The position numbers and the translations under genes are program-made. Shown here piece after piece: positions 33,883-39,820 of a DNA stretch of 64,000 nt; the stretch's first letter is position 1, and every line of letters starts with the position of its first letter. Source of the DNA: an uncultured virus (IMG/VR IMGVR_UViG_3300012009_000259) (lineage: Duplodnaviria > Heunggongvirae > Uroviricota > Caudoviricetes); the IMG/VR virus record IMGVR_UViG_3300012009_000259, one strand, 5' to 3'. The notes beneath the pieces are model-generated. The model worked only from the letters and a program-made list of their open reading frames with translations. It had not been told where the DNA came from and did not search any database.

Positions 33883-34368
33883 ATGGAAAAAGGAGGCAAC
33901 GTGAAAAATCTATGCGTTATTAGATTGAGTCAGCAGGTCATATCTCAGATTAAGGTTATCAGCCCTTTCTACGAAGATCGCGGGTACAACATAGTGGCTG
34001 AGGTAGTGGAATCGGTCTCCAGGATTCCATTTGGTGGAAAATATCCTACTCGAAGAGAATTGGACAATCTTGAGGGGTTTTCTGTAAGGGACTACAGGGC
34101 CGAAGATAAGAGCCTAAAACCTCATTGCCATAAATGCCGGTGGGCACAGAGGGTTCCAGGACATGCGCATATCAAGTGTGTTCACGATAGCCTTGACAAT
34201 AAGATGAGACTTTTTTATCTTCGCTTGGTAGTGCAAAAGTCCGCCCCCTATCCAAACCCAATAGACGTTTGGGGGCAATCCCACGCTATACGTCGAGGAT
34301 GGTTTGGGTGGCCCGAACTATTCGACCCGACATGGCTTATTCGATGCTTTGGCTACGAGGAGAAATAA
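33883..34368 (+). CDS. Cys/His-rich phage-type hypothetical protein
   Basis: CHKC..VPGHAHIKC..HAIRRGWFGWPELFDPTWLIRC. Confidence 0.65.
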   Translation: MEKGGNVKNLCVIRLSQQVISQIKVISPFYEDRGYNIVAEVVESVSRIPFGGKYPTRRELDNLEGFSVRDYRAEDKSLKPHCHKCRWAQRVPGHAHIKCVHDSLDNKMRLFYLRLVVQKSAPYPNPIDVWGQSHAIRRGWFGWPELFDPTWLIRCFGYEEK

Positions 34369-35450
34369 TGTTTAAGATAACATTGCCTTCGCCATTTGAC
34401 GACTTTCCTTTATCTGTATCTGCAAGTGTGGATACGAACAAGGATTGTAGCCGTGGCGCTGTAGACTTCCCTGAGTCAGAGAGTGACATGATGGCGCGGG
34501 CAAGCGTACATCATAAAAAGGGGGATGTTAAGATGATTATTGCCGTGTACCCCAGAGCGTGGGACTGGCTAAATAAGGCCTTGTTTCTCTTCTTTACTGC
34601 TCTCGGTCTACCGATATGCGTAAAAGCAACAATCAACGAGCGAACAGTCCCCTTTTTTGAAGGGGAGTATCCGGTATTAAACGAACACCCTTACAGCCGC
34701 ACACTAAGAAGCGAAGGGCATCATGGTGAGTATTCGTATGTTGGCGAGGGGCAGGATGGTTTTGTATATGCAAGTATCGAAAATGCAGTAGGGTGTCCTG
34801 TCCGAAACCTGCTCCCCCTAACATCCATTATCTGCTCCTGCCTTTCGTTTAACTATCTAGCCCAATCTAACGAGGGAGCAGGGACAGGGGTGTCCGTAAA
34901 TGGAGAGATGAGGATGGTGACAAACCTGATGGGAGAAATGGGGTTTAGACTGCGTATAGAAGGCAAAGGCCGCTTTTTCGCAGTTATCCATGCTGATAGT
35001 GGATACCGATTAGGCACGGTTGCACTTCCTGCGAAGATAGATGATATAAATAGTTTTCTAGTGAGATATATAAGTGAAGAAGCTGAAAACCAGATCACCT
35101 TCTGGCTGCGAGCGTGGAGAATCAGAGTTGTTAGAACAATACGTCGCATAGAGTCGAGATTACAGGGGGCAGACATAAAAGGGCAATACAAGTTCAGTAA
35201 TGCTAAAGGAGTCACACTAGTGCACGAATGGGAGGATAACGTATATCAATGCAAAGCGTTGGTGTGGGATAGCCTCACTGATAAAGAGTATATACCAATA
35301 GCGACCTTTGAGCCCGATACCGATAGGGAAATTACTTCAAGAATTGAAAAGAATCTTATCGCTGCCGTTATATCGACAGCATGGCATCTCATGTCATCTC
35401 TCGAACGAGCAGGTGTGTTTCAGACAGCACAAAGAATGTGTCTTAGATAG
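34368..35450 (+). CDS. hypothetical protein
   Basis: long ORF with TAATG coupling and gaggag RBS. Confidence 0.7.
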   Translation: MFKITLPSPFDDFPLSVSASVDTNKDCSRGAVDFPESESDMMARASVHHKKGDVKMIIAVYPRAWDWLNKALFLFFTALGLPICVKATINERTVPFFEGEYPVLNEHPYSRTLRSEGHHGEYSYVGEGQDGFVYASIENAVGCPVRNLLPLTSIICSCLSFNYLAQSNEGAGTGVSVNGEMRMVTNLMGEMGFRLRIEGKGRFFAVIHADSGYRLGTVALPAKIDDINSFLVRYISEEAENQITFWLRAWRIRVVRTIRRIESRLQGADIKGQYKFSNAKGVTLVHEWEDNVYQCKALVWDSLTDKEYIPIATFEPDTDREITSRIEKNLIAAVISTAWHLMSSLERAGVFQTAQRMCLR

Positions 35451-37812: not shown

Positions 37813-37845
37813 CACCTTCATTTTATTTCTCCTTCAAGACCGCCC
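37791..37845 (+). promoter_or_regulatory. putative antiterminator helix
   Basis: gggtgg/aagggagaa (37791-37805) can pair with ttctccttc...ccgccc (37827-37845), overlapping the terminator 5' arm. Confidence 0.6.
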
Positions 37846-37871
37846 AGAAAAACAAGGGGTGGTCTTTTTTT
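37836..37871 (+). terminator. intrinsic terminator (attenuator) upstream of the tRNA array
   Basis: aagaccgccc / gggtggtctt stem ending in a T7 run. Confidence 0.8.
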
Positions 37872-37898: not shown

Positions 37899-37981
37899 GC
37901 GGATGTGACGGAATGGAAGACGAGGGAGACTTAAAATCTTCTGCTCTTCGGGGCGTGTGGGTTCGACTCCCACCATCCGCA
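37899..37981 (+). tRNA. tRNA-Leu(UAA)
   Basis: gcggatg/catccgc acceptor, anticodon loop cttaaaa, long variable arm, GTTCGA T-loop. Confidence 0.92.
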
Positions 37982-37987
37982 CAATAG

Positions 37988-38071
37988 GCTGATGTGGCGT
38001 AATAGGCAAACGTGCTGCGTTCAGGACGCAGTGGGCTTAGGCTCGTGAGAGTTCGACTCTCTCCATCAGCA
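37988..38071 (+). tRNA. tRNA-Leu(CAG)
   Basis: gctgatg/catcagc acceptor; ctgcg-ttcagga-cgcag. Confidence 0.92.
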
Positions 38072-38110
38072 CTTGGTATTAGGCAGGGCTTGTCCCATCG
38101 CCTAATGCTA

Positions 38111-38252
38111 CCAAGATTAAGGTGGTGAAATGGAAGACACTCTTGGCGCTGTGGCTGTGCCCAAAGACCACAGCCCCCGCCTACAAGAGGCGGGGAAACC
38201 AAGTGTCGAGTAAGGGCAGGCGTGCGGGTTCGAATCCCGCCCTTAGTCTTGG
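38111..38252 (+). ncRNA. tRNA-like RNA with the anticodon loop replaced by two hairpins
   Basis: acceptor attaagg/ccttagt, Leu-like D arm, T arm gcggg-ttcgaat-cccgc, 52-nt structured insert inside the cttgg/ccaag stem. Confidence 0.7.
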
Positions 38253-38259
38253 ATTTAAT

Positions 38260-38340
38260 GGGCAGATACCCAAGCGGACAAAGGGGGCTGGCTGTAAACC
38301 AGTTGTCTCGGCTACGGTGGTTCGAATCCACCTCTGCCCA
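38260..38340 (+). tRNA. tRNA-Tyr(GUA)
   Basis: gggcaga/tctgccc acceptor; loop ctgtaaa. Confidence 0.92.
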
Positions 38341-38345
38341 CCTAT

Positions 38346-38428
38346 GGTGCAGTATCCAAGTGTGACAAAGGAAGCTGACTGTAAATCAGCCGCCTCTGGC
38401 TTCGTAGGTTCAAATCCTACCTGCACCA
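38346..38428 (+). tRNA. tRNA-Tyr(GUA)
   Basis: ggtgcag/ctgcacc acceptor; gctga-ctgtaaa-tcagc. Confidence 0.92.
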
Positions 38429-38446
38429 CTAAACTTTTGCAAATAT

Positions 38447-38519
38447 GGCGAGATGGCCGAGTGGCTAAGGCAACCGTCTGCAAAACGGTTTTACGTGAGT
38501 TCAAATCTCACTCTCGCCT
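38447..38519 (+). tRNA. tRNA-Cys(GCA)
   Basis: ggcgaga/tctcgcc acceptor; accgt-ctgcaaa-acggt; U73. Confidence 0.92.
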
Positions 38520-38524
38520 CTTTA

Positions 38525-38608
38525 GGGGGTGTGGCGTAACTGGCAGCCGCACATGCCTTAGGAGCATGTGGTCTTCGGGCCGTGTGGGTTCGACTCCCAC
38601 CATCCCCA
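38525..38608 (+). tRNA. tRNA-Leu(UAG)
   Basis: catgc-cttagga-gcatg; long variable arm. Confidence 0.92.
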
Positions 38609-38613
38609 CTTTT

Positions 38614-38672
38614 GGCTCTATGACGGAACTTGACAAACGCGGCGTCTTGAAGAAGCGTTGGTCAAAAGGCTA
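38614..38672 (+). pseudogene. truncated tRNA-Leu-like 5' fragment lacking the T arm
   Basis: similar to 39220 (5' end) and 39413 (anticodon and variable arms), with mismatches. Confidence 0.65.
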
Positions 38673-38713
38673 ACCTGCCCTAACATACATACAGCGAAAA
38701 AGGTGGGGCGACT

Positions 38714-39043
38714 ATGACCATCAGCGAGCACTACAACAAAGATGCTTATTACGCACCAAAGAATAAGGTAGGCTTCTTCTTCGAGGCGATGGGCGTTTCT
38801 AGAGAAGACTTCTCTCGGTTCAGGGGATGTACCATAGTAAAAGACAGAAGAAGTGGAGACATTGCCATTCACATAGAAGCACGGAATAGGGATACTGAGC
38901 CCCAAGAGTCTGTAAGGCGAAGAATGTAGCAATGCCCTTACTTCCGATACACACAAAGAGGCTCAGGGGAGACCTACATTAAGTATGTATTCTCTGTTCC
39001 AGATTTGACCATAGACGCGGCAAAGAGAATAATTAGCGGATAG
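38714..39043 (+). pseudogene. small gene inside the tRNA array with an internal in-frame TAG at 38927-38929
   Basis: frame continues QCPYFRYTQRGSGETYIKYVFSVPDLTIDAAKRIISG after the stop; aaggtgggg RBS. Confidence 0.5.
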
Positions 39044-39127
39044 GCGCACGTAAGGTTCGACTCTCACCATCCGCACTGGCAATTACTAGATCGGTAGCGT
39101 TGGGGGGCGGCCAACCCCCTCACTCAA

Positions 39128-39214
39128 GCAGGTGTGGCGAAAACTAGGCAGACGCGCTGGCTTCAGGAGTCAGTGCCCCAAAAAGGCGTGTGGGTTCGAC
39201 TCCCACCACCTGCA
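39128..39214 (+). tRNA. tRNA-Leu(CAG)
   Basis: gcaggtg/cacctgc acceptor; ctggc-ttcagga-gtcag. Confidence 0.9.
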
Positions 39215-39219
39215 TAAAT

Positions 39220-39303
39220 GGCTCTGTGACGGAATAGGCAGACGTAGAGGTTTCAAAAACCTCCGCTCGAAAGGGCGTGTGGGTTCGACTCCCGCCAGGG
39301 CCA
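39220..39303 (+). tRNA. tRNA-Leu(CAA)
   Basis: gaggt-ttcaaaa-acctc; long variable arm. Confidence 0.92.
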
Positions 39304-39325
39304 CCTAGTACAATAAGATATACAT

Positions 39326-39398
39326 GGTGACCGTAGCTCAATGGTAGAGCACCTGTTTGTGGAACAGGCGGTTGTGGGTTCGAACCCCATCGGTCACC
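39326..39398 (+). tRNA. tRNA-His(GUG)
   Basis: cctgt-ttgtgga-acagg; encoded G-1, C73. Confidence 0.92.
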
Positions 39399-39412
39399 CC
39401 TTGTATTACTAA

Positions 39413-39498
39413 GCAGGTGTGGCGTAATCTTGGCAAACGCGGCGTCTTGAGGGGGCGTTGGTCGAAAGGCTATGTGGGTTCGAGTCCCACCACCTGCA
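39413..39498 (+). tRNA. tRNA-Leu(GAG)
   Basis: gcgtc-ttgaggg-ggcgt; gcaggtg/cacctgc acceptor. Confidence 0.88.
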
Positions 39499-39611
39499 CT
39501 ATGCAACATAACAAGAAAGGGGAGTCCCAGATTCAGTCATGGGAGCGGCAGAGAAGATAACTAGCGGAAGCGGATAGGCGCACTTAAGGTTCAAGTCCTT
39601 TATTCCGTACT

Positions 39612-39683
39612 GTGGACGTAGCCTAACGGTTAAGGCATCTGTCTGTGGAACAGAGTATATGGGTTCAACTCCCATCGTCCACC
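39612..39683 (+). tRNA. tRNA-His(GUG)
   Basis: gtggacg/cgtccac acceptor; tctgt-ctgtgga-acaga; no encoded G-1. Confidence 0.88.
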
Positions 39684-39820
39684 TTGTTATGCCAGCACCA
39701 GACAGGGGTTGGTGAAGTGGGTCTATAAACCATTTCCAATCTCTCGTTGGGTATTATTAAATATATTGCTTATCTAAGGAGGCAGAGCTGAACAAGTTTA
39801 GGCTTTTAATTCCTATCTTA

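What the first reader, a model, noticed from the sequence alone, without database searches (positions are those of the whole stretch)
38111..38252. tRNA-like RNA whose anticodon loop is replaced by a two-hairpin junction
Seen: acceptor attaagg/ccttagt, extendable to 12 bp by ccaag/cttgg; a Leu-like D arm (tggtgaaatggaagacac); a perfect T arm gcggg-ttcgaat-cccgc; and a long variable region. The anticodon stem cttgg (38142-38146) / ccaag (38199-38203) encloses 52 nt instead of 7. These form two perfect hairpins, gctgtgg/ccacagc and ccccgcct/aggcgggg. Intact pairing argues against simple decay. Inference: it could be a non-decoding tRNA mimic (a decoy for tRNA nucleases or synthetases), an unusual intron-bearing tRNA, or an intron remnant. 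It is too short for a group I intron or tmRNA.
Basis: partly seen in the sequence, partly recalled or inferred. Interest (0 to 1): 0.72.

Follow-up and report, generated by a model that had tools for sequence, protein, structure and literature searches.

The report
Anticodon-less tRNA look-alike in phage array
A leucine-tRNA-derived gene in a large phage-like genome has its codon-reading loop replaced by two tight hairpins, so it cannot decode; it is either a stable tRNA mimic or a freshly broken copy, of a kind seen before in big phages but never explained.

Summary
At 38116-38248 (+) lies a complete tRNA body: a 7-bp acceptor stem, a Leu-type D arm, a 20-nt variable region and a perfect T arm. 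Its 5-bp anticodon stem encloses 52 nt instead of 7. Those 52 nt form two perfect hairpins in a three-way junction (z -5.7).

Rfam's tRNA model matches at 30.6 bits (cut-off 29), but only in a small-region search. No other family matches. No 7-nt loop with U33 can be regenerated, so it is not a decoding tRNA.

It sits in an 11-tRNA array that also holds tRNA debris, on an orphan, phage-like contig of at least 190 kb. I found no orthologue, no population variant and no RNA data, so covariation and expression stay untested.

The excised 133-nt RNA is not predicted to hold the cloverleaf: acceptor pairing probability is 0.01, against 0.84-1.00 for all 11 true tRNAs. The 5-bp flank extension raises it to about 0.55.

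IMG/VR phage contigs hold many oversized Leu-type tRNA bodies with non-anticodon centres and compensated stems. Lak megaphage "enigmatic tRNA introns" and T4 species 1 RNA are the nearest precedents.

Best reading: a non-decoding tRNA-shaped RNA (0.45). Main rival: an inert recombination scar (0.33). Interest is moderate.

The parts
38111..38115 (+). 5' flank (ccaag) that pairs with 38248-52 and extends the acceptor stem to 12 bp; G38115 would be position -1
   Evidence: pair probability 0.56 in the precursor context
38116..38122 (+). acceptor stem, 5' strand (pairs with 38241-47)
   Evidence: Rfam tRNA alignment; 7 of 7 pairs, one G-U (one search found no non-standard pair)
38125..38140 (+). 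D arm of Leu type (3-bp stem, 10-nt loop with GG)
   Evidence: 82% identical to the tRNA-Leu(TAA) D arm (D18)
38142..38203 (+). anticodon stem (5 bp) closing a three-way junction: 1 nt, hairpin 1, hairpin 2, then AAA
   Evidence: -34.3 kcal/mol, z -5.69, 0.81 of the ensemble
38148..38174 (+). hairpin 1: 7-bp perfect stem, 13-nt loop; two registers because of a tandem 6-mer
   Evidence: pair probability 1.00
38175..38195 (+). hairpin 2: 8-bp perfect GC-rich stem, 5-nt loop
   Evidence: pair probability 0.99. The same 21-mer occurs in 16 unrelated metagenome loci
38204..38223 (+). variable region (4-bp hairpin with a 7-nt loop, plus 5 nt); it holds a near-copy of the 5' acceptor strand that competes for the 3' acceptor strand
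   Evidence: (I15)
38224..38240 (+). T arm, perfect 5-bp stem with canonical TTCGAAT loop
   Evidence: 88% identical over 24 nt to the arrays' Leu(CAG) and Leu(CAA) (D3)
38241..38252 (+). acceptor 3' strand (38241-47), discriminator C38248, and 3' flank pairing with 38111-15
38074..38110 (+). spacer hairpin directly upstream, between tRNA-Leu(CAG) and the element
   Evidence: (minimum-energy structure)
37899..39683 (+). host tRNA array: 11 canonical tRNAs (Leu x6, Tyr x2, Cys, His x2) plus tRNA fragments

Best explanation
This is a tRNA-Leu-family gene copy inside the tRNA array of a large phage-like element. Its 7-nt anticodon loop has been replaced by a 52-nt, GC-rich two-hairpin three-way junction. 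It cannot read a codon.

Shown:
- The tRNA body is intact and the junction module is very stable.
- It lies 44 nt after one tRNA and 11 nt before the next, on the same strand. I saw no convincing + strand terminator between them; the one call there is the element's own T arm.

Inferred:
- It is transcribed with the array.
- The acceptor/T/D body supplies what RNase P and the 3'-end enzymes recognise.
- It therefore accumulates as a stable tRNA-shaped RNA of about 133-142 nt that holds two rigid hairpins where the anticodon should be. That would make it a non-decoding tRNA mimic.
- The 5-bp leader-trailer pairing holds the weak, A/T-rich acceptor stem in the tRNA fold.
- What the hairpins bind (a host protein, nuclease or modification enzyme) is unknown.
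For: - Rfam tRNA model: 30.6 bits over 38116-38248, with all body positions aligned and 51 nt at the anticodon loop.
- All 44 designed pairs are standard pairs: 39 cloverleaf pairs checked by script plus the 5-bp extension. The 3' tRNA remnant at 39036-39075 has a broken T stem (read).
- Hairpins 1 and 2 have pair probabilities of at least 0.99. The module has z -5.69. The insert is 65% G+C, against 47% for the window.
- The acceptor stem differs from the tRNA-Leu(TAA) stem at 5 of 7 positions on the 5' strand yet stays fully paired.
- The T stem differs from the Leu paralogues by a compensated pair, with Leu(CAA) as a G-U intermediate (read, D3).
- The architecture recurs in other phages. In IMG/VR, 28 of 62 well-formed Leu-type bodies (80 loci examined) are 103-218 nt long.
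- L071 and L073 share a centre identical at 76 of 78 positions but carry wholly different, fully paired acceptor stems.
- L092 is a Leu tRNA with a 31-33-nt hairpin in the anticodon loop.
- Published precedent: Lak megaphage tRNAs with 79-141-nt 'enigmatic introns' (PMC6784885, passages and Table S6).
- T4 encodes a 139-nt species 1 RNA with a T arm in its tRNA cluster.
Against: - No orthologue was found anywhere, so there is no covariation for the two hairpins.
- The excised 133-nt RNA is predicted to misfold. Acceptor pairing probability is 0.01, against 0.84-1.00 in 11 of 11 canonical tRNAs of the array. The cloverleaf is 8.3 kcal/mol above the minimum.
- The discriminator is C, or U in the 8-bp reading, not the A73 of Leu tRNAs. 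Known Leu identity is therefore lost (established E. coli LeuRS rule, recalled).
- The same array keeps obvious dead tRNA pieces.
- Most oversized IMG/VR centres are not significantly structured (z about -1.6 to +1.1). They are therefore analogues, not relatives.
Confidence: 0.45

Rival explanations
1. It is an inert scar. A tRNA-Leu copy was disabled recently when illegitimate recombination or template switching within the repetitive array replaced its anticodon loop. The helices are perfect only because the event is young. The RNA has no function and may be degraded.
For: - The array holds other debris. A 5' Leu fragment at 38629-72 is 89% identical to Leu(GAG). Two 3' remnants at 39035-78 and 39569-612 are also present (D10, D6, D11).
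- The variable region holds a near-duplicate of the 5' acceptor strand, 85% complementary to the 3' end (I15).
- The reverse complement of hairpin 1 matches the anticodon-stem/variable-arm segment of tRNA-Leu(TAG) at 13 of 14 positions (I5, 57; shuffle p 0.031).
- CTTGG/CCAAG occurs 5 times in 184 nt (Poisson P 5.7e-5; the only such cluster in the window). This fits microhomology-mediated joining.
- The excised RNA is predicted to misfold.
- There is no anticodon and no A73.
Against: - None of the 44 pairs is mismatched, and the terminal stem is 12 bp.
- The acceptor and T stems differ from all paralogues in a compensated way, which needs selection for pairing at some time.
- The insert has no second copy in the window (best E 0.16).
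- The similarity to Leu(TAG) is marginal.
Confidence: 0.33
2. It is an intron-bearing tRNA. The insert is removed by an unknown phage or host activity and leaves a decoding tRNA, as proposed for the Lak megaphage tRNAs.
For: - ARAGORN in intron mode calls tRNA-Asp(GTC) with a 56-nt intron and a loop of canonical form.
- Large phages are reported to carry tRNAs with 79-141-nt inserts next to the anticodon.
- L092 regenerates a perfect Leu loop when its 31-33-nt insert is removed.
Against: - With the perfect stem, every way of leaving 7 nt puts G at position 33 (read).
- ARAGORN's alternative needs a G.G mismatch, a 9-nt variable loop and C73, where Asp uses G73 (recalled rule).
- ARAGORN found equally poor 'introns' in 5 of the IMG/VR look-alikes inspected.
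- There is no bulge-helix-bulge: the junction strands are 1, 0 and 3 nt.
- 52 nt is far below a group I core, and no intron family matches.
Confidence: 0.08
3. It is a cis-acting structure of the array transcript, not a free RNA. It could be a processing, insulating or pausing module. The 12-bp stem, the upstream spacer hairpin and the five CTTGG/CCAAG words could allow alternative pairings that control maturation of the neighbouring tRNAs.
For: - Five mutually complementary 5-mers lie within 184 nt.
- The cloverleaf is favoured only while leader and trailer are attached.
- The spacer hairpin lies directly upstream.
Against: - There is no T-run after either hairpin on the + strand, and only a weak terminator-like call on the - strand.
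- None of the other 10 spacers in the array was seen to carry such a module.
- There is no comparative support.
Confidence: 0.1

Closest known systems
Oversized tRNAs with 'enigmatic introns' of Lak megaphages and other huge phages (Devoto et al. 2019, PMC6784885; passages and Table S6 seen)
   Same: Both lie in the tRNA set of a very large phage. In both a tRNA body is made too long for bacterial-mode predictors by an insert in the anticodon loop. In both the insert is too short for a group I intron and the mechanism is unknown.
   Different: Lak inserts are 79-141 nt and sit just 3' of an intact anticodon, so a typed tRNA remains. They are identical across cohorts. Here the insert is 52 nt, no anticodon loop can be recovered, and no second genome is available.
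Phage T4 species 1 RNA (rnaC, 139 nt) and species 2 RNA (rnaD) in the T4 tRNA cluster (NC_000866 annotation)
   Same: Both are RNAs of about 120-140 nt encoded among phage tRNA genes. rnaC carries a canonical T arm next to a paired terminal stem and long extra hairpins. Its function is still unknown (recalled).
   Different: There is no sequence similarity. rnaC does not reach the Rfam tRNA model; its best hit is 17.5 bits to tRNA-Sec over its 3' 93 nt. The window's element aligns over the whole tRNA model.
Oversized Leu-type tRNA bodies in IMG/VR phage contigs
   Same: They share the Leu-type D arm, a 7-bp acceptor stem, a canonical T arm and a centre that is not a normal anticodon arm. Total lengths are 103-218 nt. 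Their stems are compensated between relatives.
   Different: Most centres are A/T-rich and not significantly structured. Nearly all carry discriminator A (read). They are mostly solitary or in same-scaffold arrays. None shares the window's insert.
Engineered 'tRNA scaffold' for recombinant RNA (Ponchon and Dardel; recalled; the term appears in PMC3753655, search listing only)
   Same: The topology is the same: a structured RNA replaces the anticodon loop of a tRNA body, which then gives processing and nuclease resistance.
   Different: That scaffold is man-made. No natural phage example has been shown.
Group I intron in the anticodon loop of tRNA-Leu(UAA) of cyanobacteria and plastids (recalled)
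   Same: Both are inserts in the anticodon loop of a Leu-type tRNA.
   Different: A group I intron needs a catalytic core of about 200 nt or more. Here there are 52 nt, and no Rfam intron hit at E up to 10.

Membership tests
Canonical tRNA (Rfam RF00005) | Cloverleaf body: 7-bp acceptor stem, D arm with G18 G19, T arm with T-psi-C loop | tested here: met
   Alignment to the model over 38116-38248; all designed pairs are standard
Canonical tRNA (Rfam RF00005) | Score at or above the curated cut-off (29 bits) | tested here: inconclusive
   30.6 bits when 164 nt are searched. Not reported in the whole-window gathering search or the 2.6-kb E<=10 search. ARAGORN in default mode misses it
Canonical tRNA (Rfam RF00005) | 7-nt anticodon loop with U33 and a readable anticodon | tested here: not met
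   52 nt are enclosed by the stem. No 7-nt remainder has U at position 33
Canonical tRNA (Rfam RF00005) | Mature molecule holds the acceptor stem | tested here: not met
   Predicted pair probability is 0.01, against 0.84-1.00 for 11 of 11 array tRNAs. This is a nearest-neighbour model only, without tertiary contacts
tRNA with group I intron | Catalytic core (P3-P9) and a match to intron models | tested here: not met
   The 52-nt insert gives no Rfam intron hit at E<=10
tRNA with archaeal/eukaryal-type intron | Bulge-helix-bulge at the splice sites, with the intron at 37/38 | tested here: not met
   Junction strands are 1, 0 and 3 nt, and no 4-bp helix lies between two 3-nt bulges. The 37/38 reading gives G33
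Huge-phage tRNAs with 'enigmatic introns' (Lak type) | Oversized tRNA gene in a large phage, with the insert in the anticodon loop | tested here: met
   (contig of 189,846 bp); gene content
Huge-phage tRNAs with 'enigmatic introns' (Lak type) | Removing the insert leaves a typed tRNA with its anticodon | tested here: not met
   One search gives only a mismatched Asp model
Huge-phage tRNAs with 'enigmatic introns' (Lak type) | Insert conserved among related genomes | not testable with these tools
   No related genome was found
tmRNA | tRNA-like domain plus tag reading frame and pseudoknots | tested here: not met
   ARAGORN -m found 0 genes; no tmRNA match over the element
T4 species 1 RNA (rnaC) type | Sequence or model similarity to rnaC | tested here: not met
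   No phage hit beyond the T arm; rnaC itself is not a tRNA-model hit
T4 species 1 RNA (rnaC) type | Accumulates as a stable processed RNA | not testable with these tools
   No run on record as RNA holds the stretch

The most novel reading that the evidence does not exclude
Large phages use the tRNA body as a natural expression scaffold. The acceptor/T/D core recruits the host's tRNA processing and protects the RNA. The anticodon position carries an exchangeable cargo. Here the cargo is a rigid two-hairpin junction that sequesters a host RNA-binding factor, such as a defence nuclease, a modification enzyme or a synthetase. On this view the window's element, the oversized Leu-type bodies of IMG/VR (including pairs with swapped acceptor stems around one centre), the Lak 'introns' and T4 species 1 RNA are all instances of one unrecognised class of tRNA-scaffolded phage RNAs.
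Probability: 0.2. Interest if true: 0.75.

Novelty: new variant of a known kind. Interest (0 to 1): 0.45.

Why it matters
Phage tRNA genes are usually read as codon supplements or as replacements for tRNAs cut by host defences. Anticodon-less tRNA bodies fit neither role.

If such RNAs are stable and functional, they would be a class of phage non-coding RNA that standard tRNA finders and Rfam both miss. They would also give a natural counterpart to the laboratory tRNA scaffold, and a lead on the 50-year-old puzzle of T4 species 1 RNA.

If this one is only a scar, it still shows how tRNA arrays of large phages are rebuilt. It also shows that oversized 'tRNAs with introns' in phage annotations need not be spliced genes.

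Tried and rejected
Searches for relatives that found nothing useful:
- Own genome and relatives: no genome is held for this window.
- blastn against phages and plasmids: only single-tRNA or T-arm matches.
- Related loci through three flanking proteins in IMG/VR: none.
- The 393-aa neighbour has only itself among 5.8 billion proteins.
- Exact-pattern scans for the element: 0 in IMG/VR, 0 in JGI metagenomes, 0 in GTDB genomes.
- The 21-mer of hairpin 2 gave 16 metagenome loci in about five unrelated contexts. I saw no T-loop motif in the flanks printed. Several are preceded by an A-run, so they look like terminators on the other strand. I treat it as a generic GC hairpin that says nothing about origin.

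Sequencing runs:
- No RNA holder is listed.
- Laid contigs: only the source-like contig covers 38086-38247, and no variant is seen there.

Other checks that led nowhere:
- No second copy or antisense target of the insert in the window.
- No conserved neighbour gene around 11 IMG/VR look-alikes.
- No tRNA-related enzyme recognised in the window.
- Three large ORFs have no PDB relative.
- I inspected the junction strands for a hammerhead core (CUGANGA ... GAAA, recalled): absent.
- I compared hairpin 2 with boxB-like loops from memory only: no match.
- Earlier scan notes hold nothing for this genome or sequence.

Slips:
- One literature search failed on a short term and was not repeated.
- In some searches my slice of the window's element began one base late (38117). 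Searches use the exact coordinates.

Full report
**Setting.** The window has no held genome.
- Of 82 ORFs, few have Pfam matches. These include a DnaE-type polymerase III alpha subunit, a dCTP deaminase, an N6/N4 DNA methylase, an FtsK-like ATPase, a VWA protein and an M50 peptidase.
- PHROGs adds only a PAPS reductase and FtsK-like families.
- A 393-aa neighbour of the array has no relative among 5.8 billion proteins except itself, on a contig of 189,846 bp.
- The DNA is held by three runs of one microbial-mat sample.
- I infer a large, orphan phage or phage-like mobile element. No hallmark virion gene was recognised in the window, so this stays an inference.

**The array.**
- ARAGORN and Rfam agree on 11 tRNAs on the + strand between 37899 and 39683: six Leu, two Tyr, one Cys and two His.
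- Neither tool reports anything at 38111-38252 in default mode.
- The array also holds debris. A 5' Leu fragment at 38629-72 is 89% identical to Leu(GAG). Two related 3' remnants lie at 39035-78 and 39569-612, each preceded by a further 45-nt repeat (D10, D6, D11).
- A 71-codon ORF at 38714-38929 has no PHROG match.

**Observation.**
- The 142-nt stretch folds exactly as described, at -64.2 kcal/mol and z -4.28.
- The 62-nt module, made of the anticodon stem and two hairpins, is very robust: -34.3 kcal/mol, z -5.69, 0.81 of the ensemble. Pair probabilities for both hairpins are at least 0.99.
- When only 164 nt are searched, the Rfam tRNA model matches 38116-38248 at 30.6 bits (cut-off 29). 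It places 51 nt at the anticodon loop and 17 extra nt in the variable region.
- No other Rfam family comes near.
- The element is therefore tRNA-derived.
- Its D arm is 82% identical to that of the array's Leu(TAA). Its variable-arm/T-arm segment is 88% identical to Leu(CAG) and Leu(CAA) (D18, D3).

**It cannot decode.**
- With the perfect stem, the enclosed 52 nt begin C-G-C. Any splice that leaves seven nucleotides puts G at position 33.
- ARAGORN's intron mode proposes tRNA-Asp(GTC) with a 56-nt intron. That model needs a G.G mismatch, an 8-bp acceptor stem and a 9-nt variable loop.
- ARAGORN produced equally poor 'introns' for five phage look-alikes.
- There is no bulge-helix-bulge and no tmRNA.
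- The insert is far too small for a group I core.

**Evidence for and against a working RNA.**

For:
- None of the 44 pairs is mismatched, whereas the neighbouring remnant at 39036-75 has a broken T stem.
- The acceptor stem differs from the Leu(TAA) stem at 5 of 7 positions yet stays paired.
- The T stem differs by a compensated pair, with a G-U intermediate in Leu(CAA).
- The insert is 65% G+C in a 47% genome.

Against:
- The excised 133 nt prefer another fold (-56.8 against -48.5 kcal/mol). In it the 3' acceptor strand pairs with a near-copy of the 5' strand that lies in the variable region (I15, 60, 73).
- Acceptor pairing probability is 0.01, against 0.84-1.00 for 11 of 11 true tRNAs in the same model.
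- With the 5-bp flank extension it rises to about 0.55.
- The discriminator is C, not the A of Leu tRNAs.

Possible traces of recombination:
- The reverse complement of hairpin 1 matches a Leu(TAG) segment at 13 of 14 positions. The shuffle p of 0.031 is marginal.
- CTTGG/CCAAG occurs five times in 184 nt (P 5.7e-5). It is the only such cluster in the window.

**Relatives.** None was found.
- blastn against phages and plasmids gives only generic tRNA parts.
- Exact-pattern scans of IMG/VR, JGI metagenomes and GTDB genomes give nothing.
- Three flanking proteins have no related loci.
- The laid contigs show no variant over the element.
- Covariation for the two hairpins is therefore untestable at present.
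- No RNA holder is listed.

**The wider class.**
- A gap pattern (D-loop motif, 70-100 nt, T-loop motif) hit 67 IMG/VR loci. Of these, 18 (12 distinct sequences) have a T stem and at least 6 of 7 acceptor pairs at tRNA spacing. A displaced control gave 4.
- A scan for the exact Leu-type D arm gave 87 stretches, of which 80 loci were examined. Sixty-two have a T loop and at least 6 of 7 acceptor pairs. Of those 62, 34 are 74-98 nt long and 28 are 103-218 nt long (19 distinct).
- Most long centres are not significantly structured.
- The stems of these long elements are nevertheless under selection. L071 and L073 share a centre identical at 76 of 78 positions but carry entirely different, fully paired acceptor stems. 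L070 and L089 differ by compensated pairs.
- One contig (L087) carries four bodies with the same acceptor stem.
- L092 is the nearest analogue. It is a canonical Leu tRNA with a 31-33-nt hairpin in the anticodon loop (z -6.46). Removing the hairpin restores a perfect loop.
- These are analogues, not homologues, of the window's element.

**Literature.**
- Devoto et al. 2019 (PMC6784885; passages and Table S6 read; preprint passages) describe Lak megaphage tRNAs with 'enigmatic introns' of 79-141 nt next to an intact anticodon.
- The preprint version adds that such tRNAs may be common in large phage genomes.
- T4's annotated species 1 and 2 RNAs lie in its tRNA cluster. rnaC has a canonical T arm but does not reach the tRNA model.
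- A 2026 preprint on bacterial tRNA mimics (abstract only) concerns other families, none of which matched here.
- My searches found no description of a phage tRNA body with a two-hairpin junction in place of the anticodon loop. Subscription journals are not covered.
- Earlier notes of this scan mention similar elements in a Pseudomonas phage and a Streptomyces-type phage, and hairpin-interrupted dead tRNA copies in a CPR genome. I did not check them, and they are leads only.

**Verdict.** The structure is real and tRNA-derived, and it cannot decode.
- I rate a stable, processed tRNA-shaped RNA as most likely (0.45).
- A young recombination scar comes next (0.33).
- A cis-acting module of the array transcript follows (0.10).
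- A spliced tRNA is least likely (0.08).
- It is a new variant of a known but unexplained kind, the oversized tRNA-like genes of large phages. Interest is moderate, because the element is a singleton with no comparative or expression support.

Noticed in passing
window 38614-38672: Truncated 5' part of a tRNA-Leu (acceptor strand through variable arm, no T arm). Its 38629-72 segment is 89% identical to tRNA-Leu(GAG) at 39429-72, but the anticodon position reads GAA (D10).
   Followed up: partly
window 38996-39078 and 39524-39612: Two copies of an ~85-nt unit (73-77% identical). Each ends in a tRNA 3' remnant (T arm plus 3' acceptor strand) preceded by a 6-nt complement of that strand, so each could form an acceptor/T minihelix. 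The T stems carry mismatches (D6 and D11).
   Followed up: partly
window 38714-38929 (+): A 71-codon ORF with a purine-rich stretch upstream, sitting inside the tRNA array between the fragments. No PHROG match.
   Followed up: partly
window 38072-38252: The words CTTGG/CCAAG occur five times in 184 nt (P about 6e-5; the only such cluster in 64 kb). They allow several mutually exclusive pairings among the spacer hairpin, anticodon stem and acceptor extension.
   Followed up: partly
window 37841-37870 (+): A GC-rich hairpin followed by a run of T, read by eye, lies just upstream of the first tRNA. The array probably has its own promoter in the ~30 nt after it. The scan's only strong promoter-like site is at 37703-31, before that hairpin.
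   Followed up: no
L087 (IMG/VR), 12-86, 234-337, 395-586, 662-779: Four tRNA-like bodies in 800 nt share the same acceptor stem and T arm. Their centres differ (23 to 138 nt) and none is a convincing anticodon arm.
   Followed up: partly
L071 and L073 (IMG/VR): Two 128-nt Leu-type bodies have centres identical at 76 of 78 positions but completely different, fully paired acceptor stems. This is a clean case of stem swapping with compensation.
   Followed up: partly
L092 (IMG/VR), 395-512: A canonical tRNA-Leu with a 31-33-nt hairpin inserted in the anticodon loop. Removing it restores a perfect Leu loop in two alternative ways. Its neighbours are a 95-nt 'tRNA-Ile' and an 83-nt 'tRNA-Met'.
   Followed up: partly
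window 34269-35450 (+) and the window as a whole: The genome is an orphan. The 393-aa ORF has no relative among 5.8 billion proteins. Most of the 82 ORFs have no Pfam or PHROG family, and three large ORFs have no PDB relative.
   Followed up: partly
window 37924-38085, 38248-38652, 39139-39705: Contigs of other organisms from the same mats match the canonical tRNAs of the array at 80-95% likeness. They do not match the element or the debris (tables 2 and 8).
   Followed up: no
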